Below, in pieces: positions 10,383 to 63,262 of a stretch of 63,264 nucleotides of DNA. Every line of letters starts with the position of its first letter. Position 1 is the first letter of the stretch. Location: positions 1 to 63,264 of IMG/VR virus record IMGVR_UViG_3300033076_000316; one strand, written 5' to 3'. Source of the DNA: a virus (taxonomy: Duplodnaviria > Caudoviricetes). The position numbers were made by a program, and so were the translations under genes. The notes beneath the pieces were generated by a model, which searched no databases, was not told the DNA's origin, and saw nothing but the letters and a program-made list of their open reading frames with translations.

Positions 10383-10391
10383 TAGCTATCC

Positions 10392-10664: not shown

Positions 10665-10673
10665 GCTGGTCCC

Positions 10674-11096
10674 TTATAGGCTAGAAGACTGAATACCTGA
10701 TTCAAAGTTAGGGTTTACGCGTCCCTGTACAGAAGGAACTACACGAGCAGATGCCATGGTAGGACCAACTGATGGGTCAACTAGAGTTGAGCCAGTCTTA
10801 GGCTGAATGCGGTATGAAGCACCGATGTTCTCGATGTTTGCACGGTTAGCCTTACCACCTGCGGTAGGGTCACCTGCCTGTACGTTCTTCTTAGGAACTA
10901 GAGTTCCAGTAAGAGCGGTGTCAACGTGAGCGGCTCCGATAGGAATACGCACGCTTCCAGCTGCGTCAGCTGCTGCATAAGCTTCTTCGTGAGTTGCGTG
11001 GTTACGTGCCATTGATTTACCTGCCGATTCTAGGTGGTTTGATGGGTCACCGTCGCGACGACGCATTGCGTGACCTTTGCTTGCCCATGATGCCAT
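10674..11096 (-). CDS. hypothetical protein
   Basis: ORF track; AAGGAG RBS. Confidence 0.75.
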   Translation of the reverse strand: MASWASKGHAMRRRDGDPSNHLESAGKSMARNHATHEEAYAAADAAGSVRIPIGAAHVDTALTGTLVPKKNVQAGDPTAGGKANRANIENIGASYRIQPKTGSTLVDPSVGPTMASARVVPSVQGRVNPNFESGIQSSSL

Positions 11097-11133
11097 GAGA
11101 ACTCCTTTTGCTTACTACTAGAGTAAGGGATTT

Positions 11134-11430
11134 TTACTGTGCTGTAATAGCAAAAATGATTGCAGAGATTTCGCCGTCTCGGCTGTCAATAGTGGTGAAC
11201 CCTGGCTTACAAGTTAGGTCTAGTCCGCGAGGTGCTACGTATCCACGAGCAATAGCGATGGCCTTAACTGCCTGGTTGACTGCGCCTGCTCCTACGGCAC
11301 GTAGCTTTACAGCTCGGTGCTCATAGATTGCATGTGCAATTGCCGATGCTACAGACTGTGGGTTTGACCCACCAGCAATACGTAGGAACGGCTCTTCAGT
11401 TGATGGTACGGTGGTGATTTCTTCGGTCAC
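11134..11430 (-). CDS. spoVS: stage V sporulation protein S homolog (Alba-like fold)
   Basis: SNPQSVASAIA...AVGAGAVNQAVKAIAIARGYVAPRGLDLTCKPGF closely matches the SpoVS consensus. Confidence 0.92.
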   Translation of the reverse strand: MTEEITTVPSTEEPFLRIAGGSNPQSVASAIAHAIYEHRAVKLRAVGAGAVNQAVKAIAIARGYVAPRGLDLTCKPGFTTIDSRDGEISAIIFAITAQ

Positions 11431-31458: not shown

Positions 31459-31914
31459 CTACATTAGCCCGATGTTATCTGGCTTATTCTCTTCAGCAGT
31501 TAGCCTAGTTTCTAGATTTGTGAGTTTATTAGCCATGGCAACCAAAGAAGCTAAGATATCTACCTCTGTGCTCCCATCAGGCTTTTTGACTGTAACTAAG
31601 TACGGCGCAGCAGAGGTTAACGATACCGATGATGACAAAGGCTTTATTAGGCCGTGCTTATCTGAAGTCTGAATTTTTCCAAAGGTGCCAACCCAGATAG
31701 GAAAAGCTAGGTCCCCACCCTCAAACATAACCCAAACACCTTGACCTACTGACGGTACTTCAGTCTTAGTACTGGCATCTTCACGGGGCCACGCCCACTC
31801 AGTTACCTGGTCGCCAAGTAACTGAGGTACCTTTAGTCTAAGTCTTCTAGCATTATTAGGGTCTTTGGTATCATACACTGTGCCTCGGTAGATACCCGTA
31901 GCAGAGTGAGTCAT
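31459..31914 (-). CDS. baseplate spike (gpV/gp5 OB-fold)
   Basis: YRGTV...DP...RLRLKVPQ...WA.P...P.VGQGVWVMFEGGD..FPIW.G. Confidence 0.88.
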   Translation of the reverse strand: MTHSATGIYRGTVYDTKDPNNARRLRLKVPQLLGDQVTEWAWPREDASTKTEVPSVGQGVWVMFEGGDLAFPIWVGTFGKIQTSDKHGLIKPLSSSVSLTSAAPYLVTVKKPDGSTEVDILASLVAMANKLTNLETRLTAEENKPDNIGLM

Positions 31915-40970: not shown

Positions 40971-42482
40971 TTAGTTAGCAGTCTTCTGACTGAGGTTAAT
41001 GACTACAAACTCTGCAGGGTACTGAAGAGCCACACCAATTTCGATGTTAACTTCACCATTGGCAATGCTGGTAGGTGTGTTGTTTTCGGCGTCTACCTTT
41101 ACAAAGTATGCCTGAGCAGAGGTAGTTCCACGAAGACCTCCCTGGTTACGGTACTCATTTAGGAAAGCACCAGTGGCGGTACGAATACGGGTCCATAGCT
41201 CTTCGTTGTTGTTTTCAAAAACAGCGAACTGAGTAATGTCCTTTAGACGCTTTTCGATGTACAGCAAGCTACGACGCATATTTACGTACTTGTTAGCGGT
41301 ACCGTCCTGGAAAAGAGTGCGAGCACCCATAACCACAATTCCAGCACCTGGAAGATTACGAATTGCATTGACAGGAGACTGCGCACCATTTAGCGAATCT
41401 AGCTCAGCAGACGTAAACTGCTTCTCTAGGGCAAGGGCACCACGTACAGTAGCGTGTGTTCCCGCAGGAGCCTTAAATGGTCCCGTGGTCTTGTCAGTCT
41501 GGATGTAAAGACCTGCGATAGCACCAGCTGGACCAACCTTACGAAGTGACTGTGCACTACGCCCAATCGGGTCAGTAATGTAGTAGCTCGGGAAGTACAA
41601 AGCTGCATGACTCGAAACTGGACGTGATGAGGCATAGTCAAGTGCGTCCGCCACTGCTGTTCCCTGAACAGAAATAGCTGGGGCATCGAGAACTGCAAAT
41701 CCACTTCCAGCATCCGCCCAACCGATAAGCGCATCGTGAACGTTAGCGCCGTCTACAGCTCCAAGCTGAGAGAGAATCTCTGGAGCAAAGATTACTAGAG
41801 GTCGGTCAATCGAATTAAAGTCTGACAGTACATCCGAGTAGTCGCTAAAAGTTGGAGTGGTTCCGTTAGTTCCTCCAACGAGTGGAAGTACTGCTGTAGT
41901 AGGAGTGCTAGTTAGGTCGCTTACTGAAATAGTGATGTACTGAGACTGTAGATTAACAACCGTTTCAACAAAGTCACCAGAAGTACGAACATCAGTAACG
42001 ATGTCCGCATAGCGCTCCAAAATAATGTCGTCTGAGGTAGAAGGAGATGTTCCAGCCTCCTTGTAGACAGTTAGATTAAAATATCCAGAGCGTGATGCCG
42101 CGGTGAACTGAACACGGAGCTTATTGCCCTCTTCACCACGGTCCTTAGCAACTACTGTTGCCATAGTGTCAGTTCCACCAGAAGTGTGAGGAACCACGAT
42201 AGCAGCTGCGTCTGCGTCAGAGTGAAGGACTCGACGAACGTATAGTTCCGAACCACCATTCTGGAAGAACTGTCCTACACCAAAAGTTGCAGGGAATGCG
42301 TTATTGTAACCACCAAAGCGCTTGACGAAGTCATACCATGAGGTTACTAGGGTTACTGAATCTGGTCCCTGTGCAAAGTTACCAATAACGGCACCCGCAG
42401 CATTTGCGGTTCCAGTAGAGGCAATAGGCGCAGCGAGTAGGCGCTCATTAATGTAAACGCCAGGACGACTATAATCAGTCAT
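40971..42482 (-). CDS. contractile tail sheath protein
   Basis: RPGVYINE, FFQNGG, KAPAG, GART, YVNMRR, FENN, PAEFV. Confidence 0.96.
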   Translation of the reverse strand: MTDYSRPGVYINERLLAAPIASTGTANAAGAVIGNFAQGPDSVTLVTSWYDFVKRFGGYNNAFPATFGVGQFFQNGGSELYVRRVLHSDADAAAIVVPHTSGGTDTMATVVAKDRGEEGNKLRVQFTAASRSGYFNLTVYKEAGTSPSTSDDIILERYADIVTDVRTSGDFVETVVNLQSQYITISVSDLTSTPTTAVLPLVGGTNGTTPTFSDYSDVLSDFNSIDRPLVIFAPEILSQLGAVDGANVHDALIGWADAGSGFAVLDAPAISVQGTAVADALDYASSRPVSSHAALYFPSYYITDPIGRSAQSLRKVGPAGAIAGLYIQTDKTTGPFKAPAGTHATVRGALALEKQFTSAELDSLNGAQSPVNAIRNLPGAGIVVMGARTLFQDGTANKYVNMRRSLLYIEKRLKDITQFAVFENNNEELWTRIRTATGAFLNEYRNQGGLRGTTSAQAYFVKVDAENNTPTSIANGEVNIEIGVALQYPAEFVVINLSQKTAN

Positions 42483-45640: not shown

Positions 45641-46597
45641 TTAGTAATGCTTAGGAATGTAGTTCTCTTTTATGACGCCGTAGCGCATGCTGGTGCCACA
45701 ATACTGCTCATAATCTTTTACTCGGTCATAGTTTTCAGGGTTTAAAACAAATCCTTTCCAGTTAGTCCAAATCTTGTGCTTTAAAAGGGTGTTCTGTAGC
45801 GGGCTTGCATACGATGATGAGCTGCGTCTAAAGCCAGGACCTATAGTTGGCACAGGTGTTGAGTACAGGTGGTAAACGATTGAGTGCTTTAGTATAGGAA
45901 ACACTAGAGCAAACCCTGCGCTTCTTAAAAGAATTGATTGCAGAGGTTCTTCTTCAAAGAAGCCTGCAGGTTCAAACACTCCAGTGTTATTCGCAAACTC
46001 TTTGTCCCCAAAAGCAAAGTTGGCATTGAACTTTGTGGCAGGAATAAACCCTTTGCCTTCTATAGGGGTGTCTTTCCAAGAAGGAATGAACTCAGAAAGC
46101 CAACGCTGACTTGTATAGAACGGGTACCTGGATGACTCATCCCCAGGTACAGGCATTCTAATCTCGCCATTAGCAAAGCCGTAGCGTCCAGCGTATGCAG
46201 TGAGAACTAGCTTATCTAACTTAAGCTGACGCTTAGCTTTCTTAAATAGCTTAATTAACTTCTCATCCCAGTCTTTATCGACGTAGGTATGGGAGTCACA
46301 CTGCAGCATGTAGTCTTCATCTCGATACATATCAGAAGCTTGTTTTCGACCATAACCTACGCCTAGCTTCTCAGGGACATTATCGTAAGTTATTTTGTCA
46401 AACTTAAAGCGTATTTGTGACGAGTACTTTTTAGTGTGCTTTTTAAAAGCTTTCAAAAGCCTTGTACTGTCATCAAGAAGCGATACGCCAACCACAATTC
46501 TTTCAGGAAATGCAGCGTTCTCGAATAGGCCTATAACTGTAGGAATAAGCTCGGTGTCGTACAAGGACGGGATAGACACATAGATACTAGGCTTCAT
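45641..46597 (-). CDS. GT60-like (Skp1-type) protein GlcNAc-transferase
   Basis: IYVSIPSLYD.EL..T...LFENA.FPERI.VG, G.GYGR, YMLQCDSH...DWD, F..EE, YHLY. Confidence 0.8.
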   Translation of the reverse strand: MKPSIYVSIPSLYDTELIPTVIGLFENAAFPERIVVGVSLLDDSTRLLKAFKKHTKKYSSQIRFKFDKITYDNVPEKLGVGYGRKQASDMYRDEDYMLQCDSHTYVDKDWDEKLIKLFKKAKRQLKLDKLVLTAYAGRYGFANGEIRMPVPGDESSRYPFYTSQRWLSEFIPSWKDTPIEGKGFIPATKFNANFAFGDKEFANNTGVFEPAGFFEEEPLQSILLRSAGFALVFPILKHSIVYHLYSTPVPTIGPGFRRSSSSYASPLQNTLLKHKIWTNWKGFVLNPENYDRVKDYEQYCGTSMRYGVIKENYIPKHY

Positions 46598-46922
46598 CTT
46601 GGAGGAACTCTCCATTGTCAAACTTCTGTCCACGAAATACTTTAGTCAACTCTGGGTGAAACTCAACCATCTGATGCTCTTGTGAAAAAAGGCGAGATAA
46701 GTGAGAGTTAACCTTGATAATGTCCTCTACCTTCCCATCAACTACGATAGCAAAAGAAAAGGTTTCTAAGTTAGCTGGAGGAATCGGAGCCATAAAGTTA
46801 GCCTCACCATACTTTGGCTCAGGTAAACGAGTCCTATCTAAGATGGCTTCTTTAATAACCTTAAACAAACTAGGAGAGTGCTCATAGTACAGCTCTCCAT
46901 ACAGCTTCTTATATTTTCCCAT
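46587..46922 (-). CDS. hypothetical protein
   Basis: ORF track; coupled. Confidence 0.7.
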   Translation of the reverse strand: MGKYKKLYGELYYEHSPSLFKVIKEAILDRTRLPEPKYGEANFMAPIPPANLETFSFAIVVDGKVEDIIKVNSHLSRLFSQEHQMVEFHPELTKVFRGQKFDNGEFLQDEA

Positions 46923-47608
46923 TAGTTAAACTTCTTCTTTTTCCAGATACGGTTTTTGTAAGAGTTATCGTCAGTCTTAACAAACTGCGACTGTAAAGCG
47001 TTCAAGTAGCGGAGCCCAACGTTATTAGGCACATGATGCCATGATGCTCGCTTAACAGGGATTAGCTGCGCAATAGGTGTGCCTGCAGGGATTACTCCCA
47101 AGAAATCTTCCTTAATGAAGAAGGGAAGGCTTCCATTTGCGTTGAAGTCATCGCTATCAATAATTCCAGACGTAATAGTAAAAGGAAGCTCGTACCTATT
47201 CAATGGTGGAACAACCAGGGTGCTCCAACCTTTGGGTGTCTTCCATCCCCATTTACCTACAAAAACTAAATGGTTAGGCAAGTGACCTGATGGTCGTGGG
47301 ATAGTGTGGCCTTGAGCCATGTCACGTTCCGCAATGAAATCTTTAAAAGACTCTGGGCCATCCCAAGTTAGGTTCAAAGTCCCATCCTCATTACGGGCAA
47401 CGTTGATATCGAATGGAGTTACAAATGCGTAACCGCTAATCATTGCGTCTAGAAATGGGGCACACTTCTTTAAGCCTGGTATTTTTCGATTGTCTTTTGT
47501 GAAGTAGCTTTCAGCCTTACGGTACCATTCAGGTAACAAAAGTTTAATCGGAACTGGTTGACCCAGGTTATGGTACTGTTTTTCAGAAAAGAAATGGATT
47601 AGCTTCAT
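46922..47608 (-). CDS. dUTPase-fold-like hypothetical protein (DUF6065-like)
   Basis: PEWY, KKC.PFLDAM..GY, W.WKTPKGWS, GIIDSD, GTPIAQLIP.KR. Confidence 0.55.
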   Translation of the reverse strand: MKLIHFFSEKQYHNLGQPVPIKLLLPEWYRKAESYFTKDNRKIPGLKKCAPFLDAMISGYAFVTPFDINVARNEDGTLNLTWDGPESFKDFIAERDMAQGHTIPRPSGHLPNHLVFVGKWGWKTPKGWSTLVVPPLNRYELPFTITSGIIDSDDFNANGSLPFFIKEDFLGVIPAGTPIAQLIPVKRASWHHVPNNVGLRYLNALQSQFVKTDDNSYKNRIWKKKKFN

Positions 47609-47629
47609 AGCTAAATCCTATAACACGTA

Positions 47630-48466
47630 TTAGTTTCTCGTAATGTTTACTGAAGTAGCTATTACGTAGCTCTGAGTTAGCGGAGAAGACTTCAAACTAA
47701 TCCCATACTTAGATGTGGTAGTCGCTCCTGTGACTGTGTAAGTTTTATCAGTACTGAGCTGGTTAGTCAATGCCGAGTCAGAATACGCCTGAACAGTGAG
47801 GTTACTGCCAGAAGTTTTTACTCTAAATGAGGCAATGGTTGAGCTGGTGCTTAAGGCCCAGTTAGTTACCTCACTAATAACTCCTGCAACTGACTTCATA
47901 AGTCGAAGGTACTGAGTATTTACATATCCAGTAATGCTCCCATAGTTAGCAGAGGTGCTTGATTGGTAGTGGTCTCGCTGGTTAGTGGTATACGTAGGAG
48001 AGGAAGCGTATGCAGTATACGTTTGATAGTTTGGCGAACCAGTAAAAACGGTATAAGAATATGTAGTATAGCCACTAACAAAAGTGACATAATCCGTATA
48101 CCAGAACGACCAACTAGTAGAGTATCCAGTGATACCAGTGTAGGTATAACTAGTTTGTACTAAGTCCTGCCCTACTAGATACCAGTCAGTGCTTGACTGT
48201 ACCCAAATTGCTGCAGAAGAACCCTGACCTGTACCAGTAAGCTCAACTGAGTTATCTATTGTAGGCATGTCAATCGTAGACATAGGGTATGCAGTGTTCG
48301 AGTTAGGAGAAGTAGCTGAGTTTCCAGAAATACTCAAAGAACTGGTTGTAGGAGTCCACAAGCTCCCATCCGTAGAAGTTCCTAAGCTAGACGAGTTTGC
48401 TCGGGTGAAGTTATCAAAAAAGCGCTCTCTTACTGCCGTAAATCTACTACCAAGAAATGTTCCCAT
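47630..48466 (-). CDS. Ser/Thr-rich virion protein, lectin-like beta-sandwich with Tyr/Thr-rich insert
   Basis: DNFTRAN..SLGT.TDG..W start; follows a collagen fibre gene. Confidence 0.55.
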   Translation of the reverse strand: MGTFLGSRFTAVRERFFDNFTRANSSSLGTSTDGSLWTPTTSSLSISGNSATSPNSNTAYPMSTIDMPTIDNSVELTGTGQGSSAAIWVQSSTDWYLVGQDLVQTSYTYTGITGYSTSWSFWYTDYVTFVSGYTTYSYTVFTGSPNYQTYTAYASSPTYTTNQRDHYQSSTSANYGSITGYVNTQYLRLMKSVAGVISEVTNWALSTSSTIASFRVKTSGSNLTVQAYSDSALTNQLSTDKTYTVTGATTTSKYGISLKSSPLTQSYVIATSVNITRN

Positions 48467-49164
48467 TAGAGAGTTGTATCTCCAGAAAGAAGCCAAGCAT
48501 CTGTTGCGACTTTAATTAACGATGCAGGAGAATACTGAGCACGAAGTTTAAATCCTGGAGTAGAGTACACCGATGTAACTATAGAGTTTACTGCAGACAC
48601 AGTTACCTGACCTACGCCAAACTGAGCAATATTAATAGTAGTTCCTACAGGAAATGCAACAGAGGCATTGGTAGGAATTAAAAGAGAGATGGCAGCAGCA
48701 TTAGACAGCGTGACTAAAGCATCCTTATCAACTAGCGCTACGGTATACGTAGTTCCAGTTTGAGTGTTTACAGTGGTTACTGTAGGTGCTGCTGCGCCTG
48801 TAGGTCCCGTAGGACCTGTAGGGCCAGTCGTGCCAGTCGGACCAGTAACAGTAGACGCTGCACCAGTAGGCCCCGTAGGACCAGTGACACCGATAAAGCC
48901 TTGAGGACCTGTTGGACCAGTAGGACCCGTTGGACCAGTAACGCTAGGACCAGTAGGACCAACGGAACCAGTAGGGCCAGTAGGTCCGATAACTCCTACC
49001 GCGTTCTGATAAGGAAGCAGGTTCCAAGCAGTTATGCCGTTGCCAACTTTAGTCTTTAGAGTGTCTAGTTCTACACCCATTTCTCCAGCATTTAGAGTAG
49101 GGTTGGCGGCAGTCCAATCAGCGGCAAGTCCGCGAAGATGTTGGATTCTAGTTTGTACGGCCAT
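48466..49164 (-). CDS. short collagen-like (GPT repeat) fibre protein
   Basis: N-terminal W.AANP.L.AGE.G.E.DT.K.KVGNG..AW..LPY fibre module, Gly-Pro-Thr repeats, C-terminal FPVGT...W...GD domain. Confidence 0.85.
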
Positions 49165-49230
49165 TAGTAACCTCCGTTAAGTCTACTTACATTATCCTTT
49201 GTAGACGTTAAGATTATTCGCTAAACGAGG

Positions 49231-49431
49231 TTACTGAACTCTAGTTCCAAGCTTCGCCCAAGCTCGCTCATGGGCGTAGAAAAGTCCAGCTTCCCAGATA
49301 ATCTCAGCAGAAGCTAGGATTGCTGAGATACGCAGGTCATGAGTAATAAGCAGGGCCACTGTCATGGCCACGGTAATGTGAGCTACGTACCAGCTGGCAG
49401 TCTTAAGCAAACTTCTTTTATTAGATTCCAT
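49231..49431 (-). CDS. DUF2061-like membrane protein
   Basis: ESNKRSLLKTASW...FYAHERAW. Confidence 0.8.
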   Translation of the reverse strand: MESNKRSLLKTASWYVAHITVAMTVALLITHDLRISAILASAEIIWEAGLFYAHERAWAKLGTRVQ

Positions 49432-49436
49432 AGTTA

Positions 49437-50477
49437 CTATCCTTCAAGTTTGTAGAATTTCAAGTTATTTATAAGTCGAGTATCAGCAGGGTTTAGCTCT
49501 GCAGCTTTTTCTCCATACTTAAGGGCTTCTTCTTTAAACCCAAGTTTGTGCGCCGAAATTGCAGCTAAATCATATGGAAGCTCATTCCAGGCAAATTCCT
49601 CACACAAGTAGTCCAACGGTTTTTCTGCGATGTTTATTGCATCAAGAGCACGCCAGTAACAATTCTGCCAATCCTCACGATTGTAAAAGTACTGAGCTAG
49701 TTCAACCAGTGCCTCACGACGACCAGGGGCCTCGGAGATAGCCTCTTCCAACCATGAGCGTGCTTGGTCAGGCAAGCACTTCGCCAAATAGCGCATAGAC
49801 GCAGCACGCTCAGGGGCCCACACAGCCTTATCCAGACTTAGGTGCCGCTGTAGTTCACGAGCAGCTTCTTCGTACTTTCCCCAGAAGAAAAGTTCACGTC
49901 CATAGTAGAAAGCATTACGGTCATCCGTAGGGTCTTCTTTAGTAGAGAGCTCTAGTAGCGGGAAGTACTGACCACGGCTCTTAGTCTCATCAGGGTGGTG
50001 ATGAATCTCTAGGCCAACAACCTCCTGAGTTTCATCCATGCGGTCAGTCACTAGGACCTCATGGACTGGGTGCTTCCAACGGTAGCCATGGCGCTTGTGA
50101 ATCTTATCGCCGTTGTACTGAAGACCTGGTTTACCGTCTACCCACGACCACGTGTACTTGTAGCGCGGCCTCGTAGTAGTAGCTTTTTCAAGTTCTTCAC
50201 GCCATCCAGGAACAAGAACTTCATCCATATCCAAAGCAATACAGTAATCAATATCGGCAGGAAGAAGAGCAAGAGAAGCATTGCGAGCGTCATCGAAACG
50301 CCAAGGGCTAATGGAAGCAACCACAACCTCAATACCAAGGGACCTCGCAATATCAACCGTGCCGTCGTTGCTGCCAGTATCGAGGATAAATCTAACATCC
50401 GCTTCTTTAGCTGATTCAGCCCATCGTTCAACAAACTGCTCTTCATTTTTTGCAATCGAATACACCGCTATTTTCAT
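49437..50477 (-). CDS. GT2 glycosyltransferase with TPR repeats
   Basis: IAKNEE, LDTGS.DGT, FDDARN, LDMDE, PVHE, then helical repeats. Confidence 0.92.
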   Translation of the reverse strand: MKIAVYSIAKNEEQFVERWAESAKEADVRFILDTGSNDGTVDIARSLGIEVVVASISPWRFDDARNASLALLPADIDYCIALDMDEVLVPGWREELEKATTTRPRYKYTWSWVDGKPGLQYNGDKIHKRHGYRWKHPVHEVLVTDRMDETQEVVGLEIHHHPDETKSRGQYFPLLELSTKEDPTDDRNAFYYGRELFFWGKYEEAARELQRHLSLDKAVWAPERAASMRYLAKCLPDQARSWLEEAISEAPGRREALVELAQYFYNREDWQNCYWRALDAINIAEKPLDYLCEEFAWNELPYDLAAISAHKLGFKEEALKYGEKAAELNPADTRLINNLKFYKLEG

Positions 50478-50482
50478 ATAAA

Positions 50483-51232
50483 CTAGCCTACTTTACTATA
50501 GGTCCAACGTTCAATGGCACAGTGAGTCTGCTCCTCAGCAATGTCATTAGTAATTCCAAATCGTCCTAATAGAGATGCCGTAACTGCCACAATTCCAGAA
50601 CCTCCGAATGGGTCTAGAACCACATCACCCTCTATGGTGAACATCTCAATAAACCTACGAGCTACTTCCGAGTTCATAGAGTCCAGCATGAAGTACGTCT
50701 CAGATAGCTTTTGGTCCACTATTGAATCAAGATTATTAAATCTAAGATTCCAGACTGGATTGCTGTACATTCCTGCAAATTTTTCATTACGAATGAATTC
50801 GACATTGTCAGTGAGTTCCTCACTTGGCTTACGAAAGTGATACCAATAAGTTAGGCAGTTTCTATCAATAGTCTTAAACTCTGGTTCTCCCGACTCCATA
50901 GCACCGTAAGAGTTCTGTACGACCGTATCCAGATAAACGAACTCTCTAGCAGAAATGACCTGACTCACATATGCCGAGTCAAATCTGTCGCTAGTCGAGT
51001 TAGCAATGACGAGATTTCCTCCAGGCTTAAGTACCCTGTACATCTCCCTAGTCGCCAGTCTGAGCTGCCTAAGCATCGTCTGCCTGTCATTAGAAGCGTT
51101 TATTTGTAGAGAGTCATCTCCACCAAATCTTCCTACCGATTCTTCAATGTACGGAGGGTGTGTAATGATTAGGTCTACGCTCTCATCCTCTAGAGATAGA
51201 GCAAGAGCGTTCTCAGTAAGGAACTGAATCAT
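50483..51232 (-). CDS. SAM-dependent methyltransferase, beta-class N6/N4 DNA MTase-like
   Basis: DLIITHPPY, RVLKPGG, VLDPFGGSG. Confidence 0.8.
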   Translation of the reverse strand: MIQFLTENALALSLEDESVDLIITHPPYIEESVGRFGGDDSLQINASNDRQTMLRQLRLATREMYRVLKPGGNLVIANSTSDRFDSAYVSQVISAREFVYLDTVVQNSYGAMESGEPEFKTIDRNCLTYWYHFRKPSEELTDNVEFIRNEKFAGMYSNPVWNLRFNNLDSIVDQKLSETYFMLDSMNSEVARRFIEMFTIEGDVVLDPFGGSGIVAVTASLLGRFGITNDIAEEQTHCAIERWTYSKVG

Positions 51233-51867
51233 AATTTAATCATTTTACTTAGGTCGTCTGTAACGCCCCAGCCATCGTCGTACCACGGAGTAGGCATCCG
51301 CTCTACTGAGTCAGCTACGCCAGGATGCAAAATAGGAGACGCCATGTCTGGCCTAGCAGTATGAAACATAGGCACAGTATATCTACGACCAGTTACAGGC
51401 TTCACTCCATGAAGGTACTCGTGACCACCGCAAGGAAACATGACAACATCTCCGCACTGAGGCTTGTAGTAATATCCCTGATTTGGAAAATAGATTTCCC
51501 CACCTTCATAGCCGTCGTTTAGGTACAGTACTGATGAGAAGATTAGGTGCTCATACCCATCGTGAGAATCTGTGTGAGCCATACTTTTTGCCCCTGGCTT
51601 ATTCCAAAGAGAAAGCCATCCCTCACGGGTGTACAGCGGGTACAGGTATCCGTGAAACGAGGCTTGCTCAGCTAGGACCAGGTCAGAATACTTCTTTACA
51701 AAGTCAGAGCACTCTGGGTCTGCTTCAGGAACCACCCAAACATCCTCATTGCCATTAAATTCCTCTAGACGGTTGTTTGCCTCATACTTATCTACTAAAG
51801 CTACCGCCCTAGCGCAGTCCTCTTTTGATACGAAATTGTGAATGATTTTTACTCGAAAGTTATCCAA
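51229..51867 (-). CDS. 2OG-Fe(II) oxygenase (prolyl hydroxylase-like)
   Basis: HTD, LYLNDGYEGGEIYF, HGVKPVTG.RY. Confidence 0.92.
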   Translation of the reverse strand: MDNFRVKIIHNFVSKEDCARAVALVDKYEANNRLEEFNGNEDVWVVPEADPECSDFVKKYSDLVLAEQASFHGYLYPLYTREGWLSLWNKPGAKSMAHTDSHDGYEHLIFSSVLYLNDGYEGGEIYFPNQGYYYKPQCGDVVMFPCGGHEYLHGVKPVTGRRYTVPMFHTARPDMASPILHPGVADSVERMPTPWYDDGWGVTDDLSKMIKL

Positions 51868-51876: not shown

Positions 51877-52050
51877 CTAGAATGAGTGAAGTGGTTTTTC
51901 CTTGCTACCGTATCCATCTCCTGGCTTGAATTCCCAGCCGTATACCTCACGGAATATCTCAGCTCGTTCTCCATGCCACAAAGGCCGTCCAAGTTCCTTT
52001 TCCTTAGCTTCAATCAGCTCATGGACTTTCATCATGTTTTCTACTGACAT
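51877..52050 (-). CDS. hypothetical protein
   Basis: Likely start MSVENM immediately after the SufT-like stop. Confidence 0.6.
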   Translation of the reverse strand: MSVENMMKVHELIEAKEKELGRPLWHGERAEIFREVYGWEFKPGDGYGSKEKPLHSF

Positions 52051-52051
52051 G

Positions 52052-52417
52052 CTAGTCTCCAAACTGTTCTTTAGTTCGTTTAACCCAAGTAGTAGGTTCA
52101 AATACTTTCATTGGGAATCCAATAGCCGCAAGCTGCTCACGGCCATCAGCGGTAATCTTAGAGATATCCCAAATAGGGTCATTTACCCAAGTAATTTTGG
52201 TTTCATATCCAGCTTTAGACATCCACTCTGAGATGTCTGTCTCAATCTCATCCTGCATTAGACAGACCACAGATGTGAGAGTCATGTCAATTTCCACAGT
52301 CCTGTCTATGATACGAATGTCATAAACCATACCCAGGTCGTACACGTTGATGTTAATTTCAGGGTCGATAACTTCGTAAAGAATATCAACGATGTTTTCT
52401 TTAGTTAGTGTGCGCAT
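52052..52417 (-). CDS. SufT/DUF59 Fe-S cluster assembly factor
   Basis: VIDPEININVYDLGMVY, MTLTS..C.M, DP.W. Confidence 0.9.
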   Translation of the reverse strand: MRTLTKENIVDILYEVIDPEININVYDLGMVYDIRIIDRTVEIDMTLTSVVCLMQDEIETDISEWMSKAGYETKITWVNDPIWDISKITADGREQLAAIGFPMKVFEPTTWVKRTKEQFGD

Positions 52418-52947
52418 CCGCCGCCACCTCCGCCACAGCCACAGGCTCCGCCTCCGCCGCATCCACAGCCACCGCCAGAAGGCGCAAGAAGATTAATCAC
52501 AGGCCCACGAGCAATAGCCTCCTTGGCCTTCTTCTCCATTAGGTAGCGCTTCTTGGCCTCTAGTGGGTCAGCTGAACTTTTACGTTTTGGTTTACCTTCG
52601 GTGTCCAGCTCATCTGCGGCCCACTCGTCATCCGATACGTCGTAGGTGATGTGCTGATTATCTGGGCTATCCGTGTACCAGTCTTCGGTAAAATTCACGC
52701 TTTCAAAAGGAACTTCAGAGTATTTAATAGCTCTGGTAGGACATAGGACTGTAGTAGGAAGAACATCTTCCCACATCTCTTCTGGAACTGGAACCGTACC
52801 AGTATTATCATCTAGTAAGTTATACGCAATGGAAAACTTATCATAGGCAAACACATCGGGAGCCCAAGCCTGGCAACTACCACAAGCCACGCATGTATTT
52901 TGGTCTACCGCTATGTATAGATTTTTAATCGTCTTGGACACTTTCAA
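52405..52947 (-). CDS. ferredoxin (single cluster) with Gly/Cys-rich tail
   Basis: VDQNTCVACGSC...AP.VF...CPTRAI; tail GGGCGCGGGGACGCGGGGGGCAH. Confidence 0.88.
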   Translation of the reverse strand: MKVSKTIKNLYIAVDQNTCVACGSCQAWAPDVFAYDKFSIAYNLLDDNTGTVPVPEEMWEDVLPTTVLCPTRAIKYSEVPFESVNFTEDWYTDSPDNQHITYDVSDDEWAADELDTEGKPKRKSSADPLEAKKRYLMEKKAKEAIARGPVINLLAPSGGGCGCGGGGACGCGGGGGGCAH

Positions 52948-53299
52948 CGCCTTTAATTGTCGGAATTCTAGTACAAACTTCTTCTTCGATTAGTAGTAGG
53001 GTGCTAGCCGATACGGCGCAAGAGCCACATTCGCCTTGCATTGACAGCCTAGCCCAACCATTAGTAATGTCGATTAGTTCAATCGTACCGCCGTCACCTT
53101 TGATGTATGGGCCTAACTCATCCAGAAGCTCGTTAATCTTGTCCACTTCGGGACCTTCAGTAACTACTGTTTTTTCCAGTGGATTTCTAAACAGAGACTT
53201 CCTAGCTCCAAGTACGGGGCTAAACAATTTCTCCGAGTCAGGGTCAGATGCGACGTCATAATCAGCCACATCCAATGGGATGTGTACAAATTCACCCAT
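52925..53299 (-). CDS. Nfu/NifU-C Fe-S carrier protein
   Basis: PYIKGDGGTIEL...L.MQG.CGSC..S..TL..IE. Confidence 0.9.
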   Translation of the reverse strand: MGEFVHIPLDVADYDVASDPDSEKLFSPVLGARKSLFRNPLEKTVVTEGPEVDKINELLDELGPYIKGDGGTIELIDITNGWARLSMQGECGSCAVSASTLLLIEEEVCTRIPTIKGVESVQDD

Positions 53300-53304
53300 T
53301 AGTA

Positions 53305-53796
53305 TCAGTGATTGTGATTGTGATTGTGATTGTGGTGGTCATGGTCGTGTCCACCGCATGCCTCAGTATGGACGTGTTCCTGTCCTGGACTGTGCAATTC
53401 GCAAACATGTAGCGGCTGATTAGAAGACTCTTCACGGCTAAGAATAATCACGCTGTTTAGCACATCAAGAACATAGCTATGCTTAGTAGCGGGTGACTGT
53501 ATGTAGCTAGCCACTTCTTCAGGAAGATGTCCGTTAAGAATTTTAGCGGTAGCGTCCTCCGTATCGATAGTCAGCTGAGCAATCTTTTCAACGAATCGAT
53601 TAAAGTTAACTTCATTGGCTAGCTCATTAGTGGCATTAATATACGATAGAACTACGTTTTCTAACGCTGATTTTTGATAGTTTAAAAAGCGCATCCTTTT
53701 GGCGTCATTGACGTCAAAGCTTACAAAAATTTTTTGGTCACCTTCTAGGCCCAACAGGGCTTCAAGGAGAGACGAGAATTCCACGTGTGTGCTCAT
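53305..53796 (-). CDS. possible CXXX-system accessory protein with His-rich tail
   Basis: Helical body; tail HVHTEACGGHDHDHHNHNHNHNH; position in the rSAM operon. Confidence 0.5.
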   Translation of the reverse strand: MSTHVEFSSLLEALLGLEGDQKIFVSFDVNDAKRMRFLNYQKSALENVVLSYINATNELANEVNFNRFVEKIAQLTIDTEDATAKILNGHLPEEVASYIQSPATKHSYVLDVLNSVIILSREESSNQPLHVCELHSPGQEHVHTEACGGHDHDHHNHNHNHNH

Positions 53797-54059
53797 GTTG
53801 TAGGTATTTCTTTTCCAGTGTATTTCGAGATGTGCGGTACATGAGGAAAGTCGTAAAAAGGACTTCCCTTAATATACTTGCGACCTTCTTCGTCTTTAAG
53901 TATGGAACGCTTACCGTTGTCATCTTCCTGATAGATGCACGCCATTCCCTTACGCTGACCCATGTATTCAGAAATAGCAATCTCTTTATCAGTAAAGGTC
54001 GATTCTTTTCGTTCTCCGTTTAGACGATAAGTCTCGTCTTGGTACAAGTGATACTTCAT
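53793..54059 (-). CDS. hypothetical protein
   Basis: ORF track; AAGGA RBS; ATGA overlap. Confidence 0.7.
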   Translation of the reverse strand: MKYHLYQDETYRLNGERKESTFTDKEIAISEYMGQRKGMACIYQEDDNGKRSILKDEEGRKYIKGSPFYDFPHVPHISKYTGKEIPTT

Positions 54060-54072
54060 GTTTATCCTTTAT

Positions 54073-54852
54073 TTATGCAACGATGTTTTGGTTCATTAGT
54101 GCCTTTAGATAGGTAATCGCATCAGTCATGTCTGCAGTCTTTACAATGCTGTACTGGGTCTGTGAGTATGACTTACCACTTCCAGGGAAGTTGTTCAAGT
54201 CAGTAAACCACTTAGACACATGCTCAAGAAGAACAGCACCAGAAGTAGTCGGGGCAACAGCGTAAGCATTGTAAGTAGGAGTGTACCCACGACGACTGAA
54301 CTCTCCCACAGTATAAGTTAGCAGGTCATTATAGTCTGAAGCAGTAATGTACCCATTAGCAAGAATATTGGCACCTACGTTAGCAATAGTTGTCGCCTGC
54401 GAAGTGGCTGTACACATATTGTTACAGGTTCCAGAACAGGTTCCAGTACAAGCAGAGCAGCCTCCCGAACAGGTTCCAGTACAGCTTGAACATCCTCCTG
54501 AACAAGTTCCAGTACATCCAGAACATCCACCAGAGCAAGTTCCCGAACAACTAGTACAGGTTCCTGAACATCCCGAGCATCCAGAACAGCTGGTACATCC
54601 TCCAGTACAGTTATTCGAGCAGGCTCCTCCACAACCTCCAGAACATCCAGTACAACCACCAGAGCAAGTTCCCTGGCAAGTTCCAAAGCAGCCACCAGTA
54701 CAGGTTGTGTTACATGAGCCAGAGCAGGTTCCAAAACAGCTGGTGCAACCTGAGCAGGTTCCAGTACAGCTAGAGCAACCCTTACAACCTCCCGCACATC
54801 CTCCAGAACAAGTTCCAGAGCAACCAGTACAGCTTCCTTTAGCACACGCCAT
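54073..54852 (-). CDS. CXX/CXXX-repeat protein (40 Cys in residues 3-147) with C-terminal non-repetitive domain; putative rSAM substrate
   Basis: Direct count from the translation; TAATG-coupled to the rSAM gene. Confidence 0.85.
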   Translation of the reverse strand: MACAKGSCTGCSGTCSGGCAGGCKGCSSCTGTCSGCTSCFGTCSGSCNTTCTGGCFGTCQGTCSGGCTGCSGGCGGACSNNCTGGCTSCSGCSGCSGTCTSCSGTCSGGCSGCTGTCSGGCSSCTGTCSGGCSACTGTCSGTCNNMCTATSQATTIANVGANILANGYITASDYNDLLTYTVGEFSRRGYTPTYNAYAVAPTTSGAVLLEHVSKWFTDLNNFPGSGKSYSQTQYSIVKTADMTDAITYLKALMNQNIVA

Positions 54853-56312
54853 TAGTTCTCACTAACTCCAGTCTTTCTAAAGTTGTAGATATCATCCATG
54901 TCGTAGTCTTCTTTTGCCATGTCATGCAGCATCCAGTACTCTTCTTCACTGATGATTTCTAGTGCCCAAGTTATAGGCATATTAAGTTTAAATCGTTTAG
55001 GGATTCCATAGGTTCTATAAATCTTGTTCCAGTAGTACGCATTCGCTAAAACACGAGAACGATGCATTTTGCAAGAAAAAGTGGCTTTAGTATTAGGGTC
55101 ACCACTGTAGTCATAGTTATATGCGGTACATCCACCACACCCAGTAGTCACTGGACAACCCTGGCACTTAGGAGGAGACTGGGATGTCATGGTGATTTCA
55201 TTTAAATCTCTAAGCCAGTCATTATCTGCAATCCAGCTATCCATACCGTTATCCACGTCACCGACAGTCATTTCTTCTTGACGGTTTAGTGTGTACTTCA
55301 AGAAGCGTAGACATGGGGTGGCCTTACCTGCGGCACTAAACGCCAGCATTCCACCATTTCCTCCACAGAAATTGTGGTTTTCGGTACGCGGTTGACCAAT
55401 CAGTTTATCCCAGTAACTTAGGTAAAACTTATCTGTTTTCTTCTCATCAATCATCCAGTCAGCAAGTTCTTTTAGCTGGTTGTAGCCCAAGTTTGCGTCA
55501 GAGACTTTCCAGCCTTTTTCAAACACATAGTTGCTGATTCCTCCGACGACTCCTAGGTCATCGAACAGGTGCTTAAATGAATCGACCATATACATGATAT
55601 TTTCAGGAGCAATCGTTGATTTAGTCTGCACCAATCCGTTATAGTCTTTAACCCACTGCTTCACAGAACGCTCTACAATGTCGTATGAGCCTCCTCCATG
55701 ACGATAAACACGGCAAGCGTCGTGTAAGTCTTTGTTGCCGTCAATAGAGATAGTCATACTAACTCTATTAGGGTTACGCTTAAGGAACTGCTGAACCTTC
55801 TTAGACAAATACAGAGTTCCATTAGAACTGATTGAAATCATGTAGTTGTATTGCCAAGGATGGTCAAGCTCAAAAGCTTTGAACTTAAAGTACTCTACGA
55901 TATAGTCCATTAGGTCAATTTCAAGTAGAGGTTCACCACCAATAAAGTCCAGAATAACTGCAGGAGTAACCGCTAGGTCCATGTAGTCCTTTAGTTTTTC
56001 TTGGTCAAACATCATGTCAACTGCTTTTTTGGCAATTTCTTTAGTCATACGCGTATTGGTTTTGTGAGTTTCGTAGCAGTACGTACACGCCAGGTTACAC
56101 TTCTCAGTCACAACAAACGTCACATTTTTACAGTAGAGGTCCAGATTCTGGGTGTTTCTTTCTGGTTCGCAATACCCATCCGTAGAAAAAGCTGTTCTTT
56201 TAAGATTCTCTAGATATTCAATCGGAACAATCTGAGCTGTGAACCAGTCACCAAATTCAGTAAAGTCCTCATTGTCAAAAAACACGCCATTAGCGGGAGT
56301 TAGTGCAGTCAT
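54852..56312 (-). CDS. radical SAM/SPASM maturase, CXXX-repeat-target type
   Basis: CNLACTYC, FIGGEP, SNG, SIDG..H, SPASM C..G...PC...KCQGC...GCGGC...C. Confidence 0.92.
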   Translation of the reverse strand: MTALTPANGVFFDNEDFTEFGDWFTAQIVPIEYLENLKRTAFSTDGYCEPERNTQNLDLYCKNVTFVVTEKCNLACTYCYETHKTNTRMTKEIAKKAVDMMFDQEKLKDYMDLAVTPAVILDFIGGEPLLEIDLMDYIVEYFKFKAFELDHPWQYNYMISISSNGTLYLSKKVQQFLKRNPNRVSMTISIDGNKDLHDACRVYRHGGGSYDIVERSVKQWVKDYNGLVQTKSTIAPENIMYMVDSFKHLFDDLGVVGGISNYVFEKGWKVSDANLGYNQLKELADWMIDEKKTDKFYLSYWDKLIGQPRTENHNFCGGNGGMLAFSAAGKATPCLRFLKYTLNRQEEMTVGDVDNGMDSWIADNDWLRDLNEITMTSQSPPKCQGCPVTTGCGGCTAYNYDYSGDPNTKATFSCKMHRSRVLANAYYWNKIYRTYGIPKRFKLNMPITWALEIISEEEYWMLHDMAKEDYDMDDIYNFRKTGVSEN

Positions 56313-56315
56313 TTG

Positions 56316-59696
<3,381 letters not shown>

Positions 59697-62842: not shown

Positions 62843-63262
62843 TTAGTTGGTGTAAACCTTGTTGATAGCCTGGTCGGTGATGATGCCGAGGCCCCAGATT
62901 GAGTACCATGCAAGAGCGTGCTCACGACCAAAGTCAAGAACACCACCATCGCGTAGCTCAACAGGAAGCGAGATAGCGTGACCGAATGCGTTGTCACCAA
63001 TCATGATTGACTCGTAGACGTCTGCAGTGTTGCCAGTAGCACCGTTGAAAAGACCTGAGGTCTCTCCAGTGTTCTCTGGGTTTCCACCCTGACCTGCGCC
63101 AGTGTTAGCCTTTACAGGAACACCAGTCTGGTCTGCAGGAGCGCCAACTAGACCGTTGGTTGAGTAGGTGCCGTTAGCAGCAAGCTTCTTAACCTGAGTG
63201 GTCTCGATGAATACGACGTCGTATAGACGACCAATCTCACCAAGCATGAAGTTACCTGGAGC
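62843..63262 (-). CDS. major capsid protein, N4-gp56-like (5'-partial)
   Basis: GEIGRLYDVVFIET...G.NAFG...D.GR....AWY...G; frame open to the window edge. Confidence 0.85.
   Translation of the reverse strand, partial: APGNFMLGEIGRLYDVVFIETTQVKKLAANGTYSTNGLVGAPADQTGVPVKANTGAGQGGNPENTGETSGLFNGATGNTADVYESIMIGDNAFGHAISLPVELRDGGVLDFGREHALAWYSIWGLGIITDQAINKVYTN

What the first reader, a model, noticed from the sequence alone, without database searches (positions are those of the whole stretch)
54073..54852. Leaderless 40-Cys precursor with 3-4-4 periodicity fused to a C-terminal domain
Seen: Cys begins at residue 3, so there is no N-terminal leader. Spacing is almost exclusively CXX or CXXX with small residues (G/S/T), settling into 11-mers (CSGCTGTCSGG, CSSCTGTCSGG, CSACTGTCSGT). 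Ferredoxin-type CxxCxxCxxxC occurs at C23-33, C33-43 and C89-99. The 112-aa Cys-free C-terminus has repeated helices (ITASDYNDLLTY, VKTADMTDAITY). Inference: the C-domain is a follower/recognition element or a virion anchor. 11-residue periodicity would align the Cys on one helical face, giving either a poly-thioether rod or a poly-metal/Fe-S array.
Basis: partly seen in the sequence, partly recalled or inferred. Interest (0 to 1): 0.85.

Follow-up and report, generated by a model that had tools for sequence, protein, structure and literature searches.

The report
Phage cysteine-repeat protein, radical-SAM substrate
A phage gene next to its fibre genes encodes a protein that is one-quarter cysteine in its first half, and it is almost certainly the substrate of the neighbouring radical-SAM enzyme: a phage-specific, protein-sized version of a peptide-modification system that has been predicted from genomes but apparently never studied.

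Summary
It has 40 Cys in residues 3-147, with 38 of 39 spacings CXX or CXXX, followed by a Cys-free 112-aa domain. Its ATG overlaps the stop of a radical-SAM/SPASM gene that scores above the curated cut-off of NCBIfam TIGR04115, "CXXX-repeat target family" maturase.

The protein belongs to a rare family found almost only in phage records. It combines a Cys repeat of 12-82 Cys with a conserved ~110-aa helical domain. The same maturase is present in 30 of 32 loci, and a fibre gene with an autoproteolytic C-terminus is adjacent in 17 of 32. In some phages the helical domain lies N-terminal to the repeat, so it is a position-independent handle, not strictly a follower.

A bacterial member of the system is a classical leader-peptide and ABC-exporter cluster. 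The phage form has no leader, exporter or protease.

Best reading: a multiply cross-linked protein, probably through thioethers, that is used with the virion fibre apparatus. The chemistry and the virion role are inferred, not shown. The ferredoxin-like motifs are no more than chance, and the 11-residue period is a local 33-nt tandem duplication. This is a new variant of a known but uncharacterised kind.

The parts
54073..54852 (-). Gene of the Cys-repeat protein (259 aa + stop). The ATG shares one base with the stop codon of the rSAM gene.
   Evidence: ORF list. Composition and spacing. Family members.
54412..54846 (-). Cys-repeat region, residues 3-147: 40 Cys in CXX/CXXX units, ending in the family-conserved last unit C-N-N-M-C (family pattern C-[ND]-x-x-C).
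   Evidence: Family-wide, 1190 of 1216 Cys-Cys intervals (97.9%) are 3 or 4. The last unit is C[ND]xxC in 29 of 32 members with the repeat N-terminal. AF2 pLDDT is below 50.
54430..54570 (.). 33-nt tandem array (4.3 copies, 76% matches) that produces the 11-residue 3-4-4 repeats.
   Evidence: Tandem Repeats Finder and spacing shuffles.
54076..54411 (-). Cys-free helical domain, residues 148-259 (helices 146-166, 171-187, 209-220, 239-254).
   Evidence: AF2 pLDDT 70-87. 34 representatives at E<=1e-3 among 1.84 billion. Invariant G160, D173, E184, R187, R188 and L252 in 20 sequences. No specific fold match.
54852..56312 (-). Radical-SAM/SPASM maturase, 486 aa. CX3CX2C at C72/C76/C79, and seven further invariant Cys (C316, C334, C383, C386, C392, C395, C414).
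   Evidence: TIGR04115 at 378.7 bits against a cut-off of 350. Pfam Radical_SAM. Alignment of 18 phage homologues. Homologue present in 30 of 32 loci.
56316..59696 (-). Collagen-like fibre protein, 1126 aa, with a C-terminal autoproteolytic (Peptidase_G2/IMC-like) region. It lies immediately upstream of the maturase.
   Evidence: Pfam Collagen at 1.6e-34. Peptidase_G2 reaches only 18.4 bits here (below the cut-off of 25) but 28.4 bits in the L002 homologue. PHROG tail-fibre families. The C-terminal 330 aa have homologues beside the module in other loci; fibre cluster in 17 of 32 loci.
53793..54059 (-). 88-aa protein of unknown function, conserved next to the module in W, L003 and L032 only.
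   Evidence: No Pfam, NCBIfam or PHROG hit.
53305..53796 (-). 163-aa accessory protein with a His/Cys-rich tail, and a possible distant relative of the system's small associated protein. Its family is present in 9 of 32 loci.
   Evidence: Cluster 4. AF2 shows a helical hairpin plus a small sheet. hhalign to the small accessory family that includes the bacterial TIGR04116-like protein gives only 42% probability. TIGR04116 itself was not found in the window.
52925..53299 (-). NifU-like Fe-S scaffold domain protein. A supporting role for the maturase is inferred.
   Evidence: Pfam NifU at 7.3e-16. Homologues at the same place in L003 and L032.
52405..52947 (-). Single-cluster ferredoxin with a Gly/Cys tail. 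A role as electron donor for the maturase is inferred.
   Evidence: Pfam Fer4_13 at 1.3e-10. Homologue in L003.
52052..52462 (-). SufT/DUF59-type Fe-S assembly protein. A supporting role is inferred.
   Evidence: Pfam FeS_assembly_P at 4.5e-13. NCBIfam SUF_assoc and SufT hits below cut-off. Seen only in the window.

Best explanation
The 259-aa ORF on the minus strand is the protein substrate of the translationally coupled radical-SAM/SPASM maturase upstream. Together they form a phage version of the NCBIfam 'CXXX-repeat' modification system.

Proposed course of events:
- Late in infection the module is expressed with the virion genes.
- The maturase, supplied with clusters and electrons by the phage's own NifU-like, SufT-like and ferredoxin genes (inferred), acts repeatedly along the CXX/CXXX repeat.
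- It converts many of the 40 thiols into intramolecular cross-links. These are most likely thioethers, as made by its nearest characterised relatives (inferred).
- Only the Cys positions and the last unit C-[ND]-x-x-C are conserved. The acceptor is therefore probably defined by position (backbone or neighbouring residue) and not by a particular side chain (inferred).
- The ~110-aa helical domain is a position-independent handle that can sit at either end of the repeat. It serves enzyme or partner docking, or assembly.
- There is no leader, protease or exporter, so the product stays a whole protein: a covalently stapled, redox- and protease-resistant Cys rod on a helical foot.
- It is most likely used together with the fibre apparatus of the virion (inferred from gene position only).
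For: Shown:
- The rSAM scores 378.7 bits against TIGR04115 (cut-off 350).
- The substrate ATG overlaps the rSAM stop.
- The same rSAM family is present in 30 of 32 loci holding a family member. The two without it, L005 and L006, are contigs of 8 and 6 kb cut nearby.
- Relatives reach the TIGR04114 target-repeat cut-off of 20 bits: L002 30.4 and L025 21.3. The window protein scores 17.0.
- Across 41 distinct family sequences, 97.9% of 1216 Cys intervals are 3 or 4, while the Cys count ranges from 12 to 82.
- L007 and L011 have three substrate paralogues for one rSAM.
- The next-best rSAM models are the thioether makers PapB (175 bits), QhpD (136 bits) and the SCIFF maturase (120 bits). Their chemistry is taken from passages of PMC8326336. 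QhpD cross-links a protein subunit, which is a precedent for a substrate that is not cleaved.
- Pfam finds no protease or transporter among the 10 neighbouring window genes.
- The module lies inside the virion block, between a major-head-protein fragment (62843-63247) and the tail sheath (40971-42482), with collagen-like fibre genes on both sides.
- A fibre with the same C-terminal region is adjacent in 17 of 32 loci, in several gene orders.
- The Brevibacillus prophage L032 has baseplate, fibre, rSAM, 148-aa protein, Cys protein, p88, p163 and NifU genes in that order.
Against: - No experiment exists on any member. The cross-link type, the number of Cys modified and the acceptor are all inferred.
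- The window protein is below the TIGR04114 cut-off (17 against 20), and the window lacks TIGR04116 and TIGR04119.
- PapB-type acceptors (Asp/Glu) are absent from the window's repeat.
- The virion role rests on gene neighbourhood alone. The helical domain matches no known virion protein or fold. The best match is Z 7.0 to a designed filament, and the Foldseek searches gave no hit at E<=1e-3.
- No cultured phage in the 50,697-record collection carries the protein, so no virion proteome can be consulted.
- Many of the 32 loci are near-duplicates (L005/6/7/11; L019-21; L025-28/31; L029/30; L008/13; L004/10). My rough estimate is about a dozen independent lineages.
- Regions next to fibre genes are also common sites for accessory cargo genes.
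Confidence: 0.55

Rival explanations
1. It is a RiPP-type precursor whose helical domain is a large leader or follower, comparable in size to Nif11/NHLP leaders (recalled). After modification the domain is cut off by a host or unrecognised protease. The free Cys-rich peptide, a bacteriocin, signal or host-manipulating factor, is released at lysis and is not part of the virion.
For: - The bacterial member of the same rSAM family (G308/L038) is a classical cluster: an rSAM fused to TIGR04119, a TIGR04116-like protein, two ~75-aa precursors with a leader and a CXXX core, and ABC transporters.
- The handle can be on either side of the repeat, as leaders and followers can.
- There are several substrate paralogues per enzyme in L007 and L011.
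- Prophage cargo often sits beside tail-fibre genes (general knowledge).
Against: - No protease or exporter is among the window's 10 neighbours.
- The cores would be 60-280 residues with up to 82 Cys, far beyond known RiPPs.
- In the window the module sits in the middle of the virion block, not at its end.
- The fibre gene is adjacent in 17 of 32 loci.
- The junction motif C-[ND]-x-x-C followed by T/S-rich residues shows no recognisable double-Gly type cleavage site (my reading).
Confidence: 0.22
2. It is a metal- or iron-sulfur-binding protein, either metallothionein-like or a cluster or sulfide store. It is linked to the neighbouring NifU-like, SufT-like and ferredoxin genes, and its thiols stay free and bind metal.
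For: - 27% Cys with small spacers.
- NifU-like, ferredoxin and SufT-like genes and a His-rich tail on p163 lie directly downstream.
- CxxCxxCxxxC occurs three times.
Against: - The constant partner across loci is the rSAM maturase (30 of 32). NifU is present in only 3 loci, ferredoxin in 2 and SufT in 1.
- The ferredoxin-like spacing is at chance level.
- There is no Pfam Fer4 or metallothionein hit at E<=0.01.
- The Fe-S genes are explained more simply as supply for an enzyme with three predicted clusters.
Confidence: 0.1
3. It is a virion or fibre protein that is stabilised by ordinary disulfides after lysis. The maturase acts only on the conserved last unit (C-[ND]-x-x-C, of the NxxC type) or on a few sites, so there is no poly-thioether.
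For: - Only the junction-proximal units are conserved in sequence: C135, C139, C143 and C147 are invariant, and C[ND]xxC is the last unit in 29 of 32 members.
- An Asn-x-x-Cys beta-thioether made by a SPASM enzyme is known (NxxcA; passages of PMC8326336).
- For SCIFF peptides only one of six Cys was found cross-linked in vitro (same passages).
Against: - The strict CXX/CXXX register is kept over up to 82 Cys in all members. This argues that the whole repeat is under constraint by the enzyme or by a defined structure.
- Members with the repeat C-terminal lack the C[ND]xxC end unit.
Confidence: 0.1

Closest known systems
NCBIfam 'CXXX repeat peptide modification system' (TIGR04114 target repeat, TIGR04115 rSAM/SPASM maturase, TIGR04116 associated protein, TIGR04119 maturase domain), defined from genomes only. 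No paper was found.
   Same: - The maturase is over the TIGR04115 cut-off.
- The target is a run of Cys every third or fourth residue.
- The enzyme and target genes are adjacent.
   Different: - The phage form has no leader. It carries a conserved ~110-aa helical domain at either end of the repeat.
- Its repeats are 3 to 20 times longer, with 12-82 Cys against roughly a dozen in each of the two G308 precursors (my reading of the sequences).
- TIGR04116 and TIGR04119 are absent from the window, and there are no ABC exporters.
- It lies in virion gene blocks beside fibre genes and has its own accessory families (the p163 family and the ~147-aa family).
- The window target scores 17.0 against the cut-off of 20.
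Ranthipeptide systems: PapB/freyrasin, SCIFF (CteB/CteA) and NxxcB/NxxcA.
   Same: - SPASM radical-SAM enzymes that join Cys sulfur to a carbon of a nearby residue.
- PapB is the second-best model for the window enzyme (175 bits).
- Freyrasin has six repeated Cys-Asp links. NxxcA links Cys to the Asn three residues before it, the same spacing as the conserved last unit here (passages of PMC8326336).
   Different: - The scores are far below the family cut-offs: PapB 175 against 340, SCIFF 120 against 425.
- There are no Asp or Glu acceptors in the window repeat.
- The substrate is a 259-aa protein without a leader, not a peptide of about 45 residues.
QhpD/QhpC of quinohemoprotein amine dehydrogenase.
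   Same: A SPASM radical-SAM enzyme installs several intramolecular Cys thioethers in a small Cys-containing protein subunit. That subunit is not cleaved and remains part of a larger assembly (passages of PMC8326336). It is the third-best model (136 bits).
   Different: - The score is below the cut-off (136 against 453).
- QhpC has a few Cys-Asp/Glu links and a quinone cofactor, not a long repeat.
- It is a bacterial periplasmic enzyme, not a phage module.
Large-leader RiPP precursors (Nif11-like and nitrile-hydratase-like leader families). Recalled, not tested here.
   Same: A folded, domain-sized non-core part is attached to a short-residue, Cys-rich core and is paired with radical-SAM or other maturases. 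The nif11-like peptide rSAM maturase model hits the window enzyme at 111 bits.
   Different: - Those leaders are N-terminal and are removed at a double-Gly site by a peptidase-exporter.
- No such gene or site is seen here.
- The helical domain here showed no Pfam family at E<=0.01.

Membership tests
CXXX-repeat rSAM modification system (NCBIfam TIGR04114-04116, 04119) | Maturase over the TIGR04115 cut-off (350 bits) | tested here: met
   378.7 bits, residues 62-427 matched to model positions 2-359 of 359. 379.6 bits in the six-frame search.
CXXX-repeat rSAM modification system (NCBIfam TIGR04114-04116, 04119) | Target protein over the TIGR04114 repeat cut-off (20 bits) | tested here: not met
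   The window protein scores 17.0 bits, E 0.006. Relatives pass: L002 30.4 and L025 21.3. Others (L009, L010, L018) gave no hit, and one of the two bacterial G308 precursors scored only 15.1. The model is therefore a weak discriminator.
CXXX-repeat rSAM modification system (NCBIfam TIGR04114-04116, 04119) | Small associated protein TIGR04116 | tested here: not met
   No match at E<=1 in a six-frame search of the window, and none for p163 or p88 at E<=0.1. The hhalign link of the p163 family to the small accessory family is weak, 42% probability. The record is about 66% complete.
CXXX-repeat rSAM modification system (NCBIfam TIGR04114-04116, 04119) | TIGR04119 maturase domain | tested here: not met
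   No match at E<=1 in the window. It is present, fused to the rSAM, in the bacterial cluster G308 at 236 bits.
Classical RiPP precursor | N-terminal leader, plus a protease and/or exporter in the cluster | tested here: not met
   Cys starts at residue 3. No protease or transporter family is among the 10 neighbouring genes. The other loci were not scanned systematically for these.
PapB-type ranthipeptide | Maturase over the PapB cut-off, and CX3[DE] acceptor motifs in the core | tested here: not met
   175.3 bits against a cut-off of 340. There are 0 Asp or Glu in residues 1-147.
SCIFF | Maturase over the TIGR03974 cut-off, and a ~45-aa precursor with six Cys | tested here: not met
   120.5 bits against a cut-off of 425. 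The substrate is 259 aa with 40 Cys.
Thioether cross-linked product (sactionine or ranthionine chemistry) | Covalent S-C links, about 2 Da lost per link | not testable with these tools
   Needs mass spectrometry or NMR of the co-expressed protein.
Ferredoxin-type Fe-S protein | CxxCxxCxxxC(P) cluster motifs beyond chance, and a Fer4 family match | tested here: not met
   3 motifs against 2.64 expected from shuffled spacings, p = 0.56. No Pfam family at E<=0.01.
Virion structural protein | Homology or fold likeness to a known virion protein, or detection in particles | tested here: inconclusive
   The only PHROG hit is to an unknown-function family (phrog_6085, E 3.8e-5). Fold searches give only generic helical matches. 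The protein is not found in 50,697 phage records. Gene position in the virion block is the only support.

The most novel reading that the evidence does not exclude
Some tailed phages build a fibre-associated virion component from a protein whose 20-80 cysteines are turned by a phage-encoded radical-SAM enzyme into a continuous ladder of thioether macrocycles. This would be a ribosomal, length-tunable, covalently stapled rod. The phage brings its own Fe-S assembly and ferredoxin genes to power the reaction. It would be the first radical-SAM cross-linked structural protein of a virus, and the largest known substrate of a RiPP-type maturase.
Probability: 0.3. Interest if true: 0.9.

Novelty: new variant of a known kind. 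Interest (0 to 1): 0.62.

Why it matters
Radical-SAM/SPASM maturases are known to act on short leader-bearing peptides, and in one case (QhpD) on a small enzyme subunit. Here the same enzyme class is paired, in about a dozen phage lineages, with protein-sized leaderless substrates. These carry up to 82 regularly spaced cysteines and a dedicated helical domain, and they sit among fibre genes.

If the product is cross-linked as inferred, it would:
- extend RiPP-type chemistry to virion or virion-associated proteins;
- give a natural example of a genetically length-tunable poly-macrocyclic polymer;
- explain why a phage carries NifU-like, SufT-like and ferredoxin genes.

It would also give the first experimental handle on the CXXX-repeat system, for which I found no publication.

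Tried and rejected
- **Close phage DNA relatives.** None for 52000-57000 in the phage collection.
- **The protein in cultured phages.** tblastn of the protein against 50,697 phage records gave no match. The rSAM matched only two unannotated uncultured records.
- **Fused forms.** The word-based search for longer (455-2000 aa) forms of the helical domain found none (weak evidence by the tool's own note). The near-length search found one relative.
- **Long proteins in the representative search.** Three long proteins (P0012, P0033, P0035) are Cna_B or CHU_C repeat proteins. I set them aside as compositional matches.
- **Fold of the helical domain.** pdb_via_wide gave a best Z of 7.0, to a designed filament. 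BFVD had no hit at E<=1e-3. Foldseek against the PDB had none at E<=1e-3. The ESM Atlas returned only unnamed viral clusters, plus one cluster in which 19% of members carry PF27846 tSAM_targ_Cxxx_rpt.
- **Fold of p163.** The matches are generic helical hairpins. I had hoped for a PqqD-like recognition fold and none appeared.
- **Complex prediction.** The maturase with residues 120-259 of the Cys protein, with three 4Fe-4S clusters and SAM riding along, scored 0.01. The verdict was 'no answer', which is neither for nor against binding.
- **Internal duplication in the helical domain.** Not supported.
- **The ~147-aa partner family.** It is present in 12 loci and has no member in the window.
- **Prophage search in 185,579 species genomes.** One locus only, in Brevibacillus sp..
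- **TIGR04115 in the Brevibacillus phylum.** Found in 2 of 401 sampled genomes.
- **Literature.** 'CXXX repeat' with 'radical SAM', TIGR04115 (one unrelated paper), 'CXXX-repeat', and TIGR04114/04116/04119/PF27846 gave nothing relevant. Broader searches listed no paper on a phage Cys-repeat rSAM substrate, judged from titles and abstract starts only. Supplements were not consulted.
- **Not used.** Sequencing runs and read laying.
- **Considered and rejected.** The overlapping ORFs 54347-54865 (+) and 54375-54845 (-) are shadow frames of the repeat, because only the 259-aa frame carries the conserved domain.
Full report
**What is there**

The coordinates hold a single ORF, but it is on the minus strand (54852→54073, 259 aa). 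The plus-strand frame is full of stops.

- The protein has 40 Cys, all within residues 3-147. The spacings are 4 (25 times), 3 (13 times) and 5 (once).
- That region is built almost only of C, G, S and T, and has no Asp or Glu.
- The last 112 residues have no Cys.
- The ATG shares a base with the stop codon of the upstream gene, so the two are probably translationally coupled.
- This is far from chance composition and it is a real gene. Its C-terminal part has relatives: one at 62% identity in the 5.8-billion-protein set, and 34 representatives at E<=1e-3, nine of them at E<=1e-10, in the 1.84-billion set.
- I read 20 of those 34. Seventeen show the same plan, a Cys repeat followed by the domain, and three are short fragments.
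- Three long hits are Cna_B or CHU_C repeat proteins, and I set them aside as compositional.

- The ferredoxin-like CxxCxxCxxxC does occur three times. Shuffling the order of the observed spacings gives 2.64 on average (p = 0.56), so it carries no information.
- The 11-residue 3-4-4 units are real. They correspond to a 33-nt tandem array (54430-54570, 4.3 copies, 76% matches). The enrichment is modest (p = 0.04), and several relatives have none. This is a recent local duplication, not a structural period of the family.
- What the family does keep is the register. Of 1216 Cys-Cys intervals in 41 distinct sequences, 913 are 4 and 277 are 3, together 97.9%.
- Between the Cys, position 1 is mostly S or T, position 2 mostly G, and position 3 T, G or S. 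D, E, N, K and Y are common in distant members.
- AF2 with a 20-sequence alignment gives no confident structure for residues 17-149 (pLDDT below 50). It gives a four-helix unit for residues 146-254 at pLDDT 70-87.
- The two 'repeated helices' are a short motif resemblance only.

**The neighbour that explains it**

- The upstream gene (54852-56312, 486 aa) is a radical-SAM/SPASM enzyme. It scores 378.7 bits against NCBIfam TIGR04115, 'radical SAM peptide maturase, CXXX-repeat target family' (cut-off 350). PapB (175 bits), QhpD (136 bits) and the SCIFF maturase (120 bits) follow, all below their cut-offs.
- An alignment of 18 phage homologues keeps the CX3CX2C triad and seven more Cys, as expected for a SPASM domain with auxiliary clusters (the cluster assignment is my reading).
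- The Cys protein itself touches the companion model TIGR04114 at 17.0 bits (cut-off 20). Relatives in L002 and L025 pass it.

**Family and context**

Pattern scans of IMG/VR gave 30 loci, and the species-genome collection gave one, a Brevibacillus sp. prophage. With the window that makes 32 loci. My scripts gave these counts:

- A maturase of the same family is in 30 of 32 loci. The exceptions, L005 and L006, are short cut contigs.
- A profile of the helical domain hits an ORF in the window and in 26 of the 31 other loci.
- A fibre protein sharing the window fibre's C-terminal region is adjacent in 17 of 32 loci. That region is Peptidase_G2/IMC-like: 28.4 bits in L002, and only 18.4 in the window, below the cut-off of 25.
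- Many loci are near-duplicates, so there are roughly a dozen independent lineages (my estimate).
- The gene order varies: fibre-rSAM-Cys protein, fibre-Cys protein-x-x-rSAM, or with a glycosyltransferase in between. This argues for selection on co-occurrence and not for simple inheritance of one block.

Further family features:

- L007 and L011 carry three Cys-protein paralogues with one maturase. Each paralogue is followed by its own ~147-154-aa helical protein.
- That partner family (clusters 7 and 14, hhalign 85.7%) is in 12 loci but not in the window.
- A second accessory family, the window's 163-aa protein, is in 9 loci.
- An 88-aa protein and a NifU-like gene recur in W, L003 and L032, and a ferredoxin in W and L003.

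**The domain order is not fixed**

By my reading, 10 of the 41 distinct sequences have the helical domain first and the Cys repeat at the C-terminus. They come from L014, L018, L019-21 and L023-27. In L014 a further N-terminal domain precedes both.

So 'follower' is too narrow. The domain is a handle that works from either end. When the repeat is N-terminal, its last unit is C-[ND]-x-x-C in 29 of 32 sequences (a 30th, L009, by eye). The four Cys nearest the junction are invariant.

**Comparison with the bacterial system**

- TIGR04115 is rare. It was found in 2 of 401 sampled genomes of the Brevibacillus phylum, one of them the prophage itself.
- The other genome (G308, locus L038) shows the classical form. 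It has an rSAM fused to a TIGR04119 domain (236 bits), a 101-aa TIGR04116-like protein (39.5 bits, below the cut-off of 50), two ~75-aa precursors with a leader followed by roughly a dozen CXXX units, and ABC transporter genes.
- The window has neither TIGR04116 nor TIGR04119. It has no leader, and Pfam finds no protease or transporter among the ten neighbouring genes.
- The p163 family may be a very distant relative of the small associated protein (hhalign 42%). I do not rely on that.

**Where the module sits in this phage**

- The record is an IMG/VR virus contig estimated to be 66% complete. It is a myovirus, with a tail sheath at 40971-42482 and a baseplate wedge at 31914-33776.
- The module lies between a major-head-protein fragment (62843-63247) and the sheath.
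- Collagen-like fibre genes lie on both sides (56316-59696 and 48466-49164). A 2OG-Fe(II) oxygenase and two glycosyltransferases are nearby.
- All genes are on one strand and tightly packed, and no convincing promoter or terminator separates the maturase from its substrate.

**Mechanism, with the status of each step**

- Shown: the gene pair, its conservation, the family assignment of the enzyme, and the absence of leader, exporter and protease in the window.
- Inferred from the nearest characterised enzymes (passages of PMC8326336): the Cys thiols are joined to carbon atoms of nearby residues as thioethers. QhpD shows that such enzymes can staple a protein that is not cleaved afterwards. NxxcB shows an Asn-x-x-Cys link with the same spacing as the conserved end unit here.
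- Inferred from conservation: only the Cys register is kept, so the acceptor is set by position and not by side chain.
- Inferred from gene position only: the product works with the fibre apparatus of the virion.
- Inferred: the NifU-like, SufT-like and ferredoxin genes feed the enzyme.

**What failed to discriminate**

- No fold match for the helical domain or for p163.
- No longer fused forms.
- No cultured phage carries the gene.
- The one complex prediction gave no verdict. It is told in Tried and rejected only.

**Novelty and verdict**

I found no paper on the CXXX-repeat system or on a phage Cys-repeat radical-SAM substrate (listings only, supplements closed).

The finding is real and more than chance. 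It is best filed as a new, phage-specific variant of a known but uncharacterised radical-SAM modification system. The helical-face and ferredoxin arguments do not hold.

My confidence that the protein is the maturase's substrate is high, about 0.85-0.9. For the full model, including thioether chemistry and a virion-associated role, it is about 0.55. Interest is 0.62.

Noticed in passing
window 52052-53299 (-): A phage-borne Fe-S supply set lies directly downstream of the module: NifU-like (52925-53299), a ferredoxin with a C-terminal tail made only of Gly, Cys and a few Ala/His (52405-52947), and a SufT/DUF59-like gene (52052-52462). NifU recurs in L003 and L032, and the ferredoxin in L003.
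   Followed up: partly
window 53305-53796 (-): The 163-aa accessory protein ends in a His/Cys-rich tail, and its gene runs into the start of the NifU-like gene. Relatives in L003 and L032 also end in C/H-rich tails. AF2 shows a long helical hairpin plus a small sheet, with no specific fold match.
   Followed up: partly
window 45641-51867 and 56316-59696 (-): Two collagen-like fibre genes (56316-59696 and 48466-49164) flank a 2OG-Fe(II) oxygenase (51229-51867), a GT2+TPR glycosyltransferase (49437-50477), a second glycosyltransferase (45641-46633) and an N6/N4 DNA methylase (50483-51232). This may be a collagen hydroxylation and glycosylation island for the fibres.
   Followed up: no
L014:2362-4737: The maturase homologue of this phage (791 aa) is interrupted right after its CxxxCxxC motif by an intein with a LAGLIDADG endonuclease (Pfam Intein_splicing and LAGLIDADG_3).
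   Followed up: partly
L007:5107-10573 and L011:4383-10573: Three paralogous Cys-repeat proteins occur per phage with a single maturase. Each paralogue is followed by its own ~147-154-aa helical partner, an arrangement like fibre and chaperone gene pairs. The partner family is absent from the window.
   Followed up: partly
L038 (G308:C48) 8164-11411: A bacterial CXXX-repeat cluster in classical RiPP form: an rSAM fused to a TIGR04119 domain, a TIGR04116-like protein, two ~75-aa leader-bearing precursors, and ABC transporter genes downstream. It is a useful comparator for experiments.
   Followed up: partly
window 54347-54865 (+) and 54375-54845 (-): Long open shadow frames (172 and 156 aa, Pro/Glu/Gln/Val-rich or Leu/Val/Glu-rich) overlap the Cys repeat. 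They are by-products of the repeat's codon periodicity and could be miscalled as genes.
   Followed up: partly
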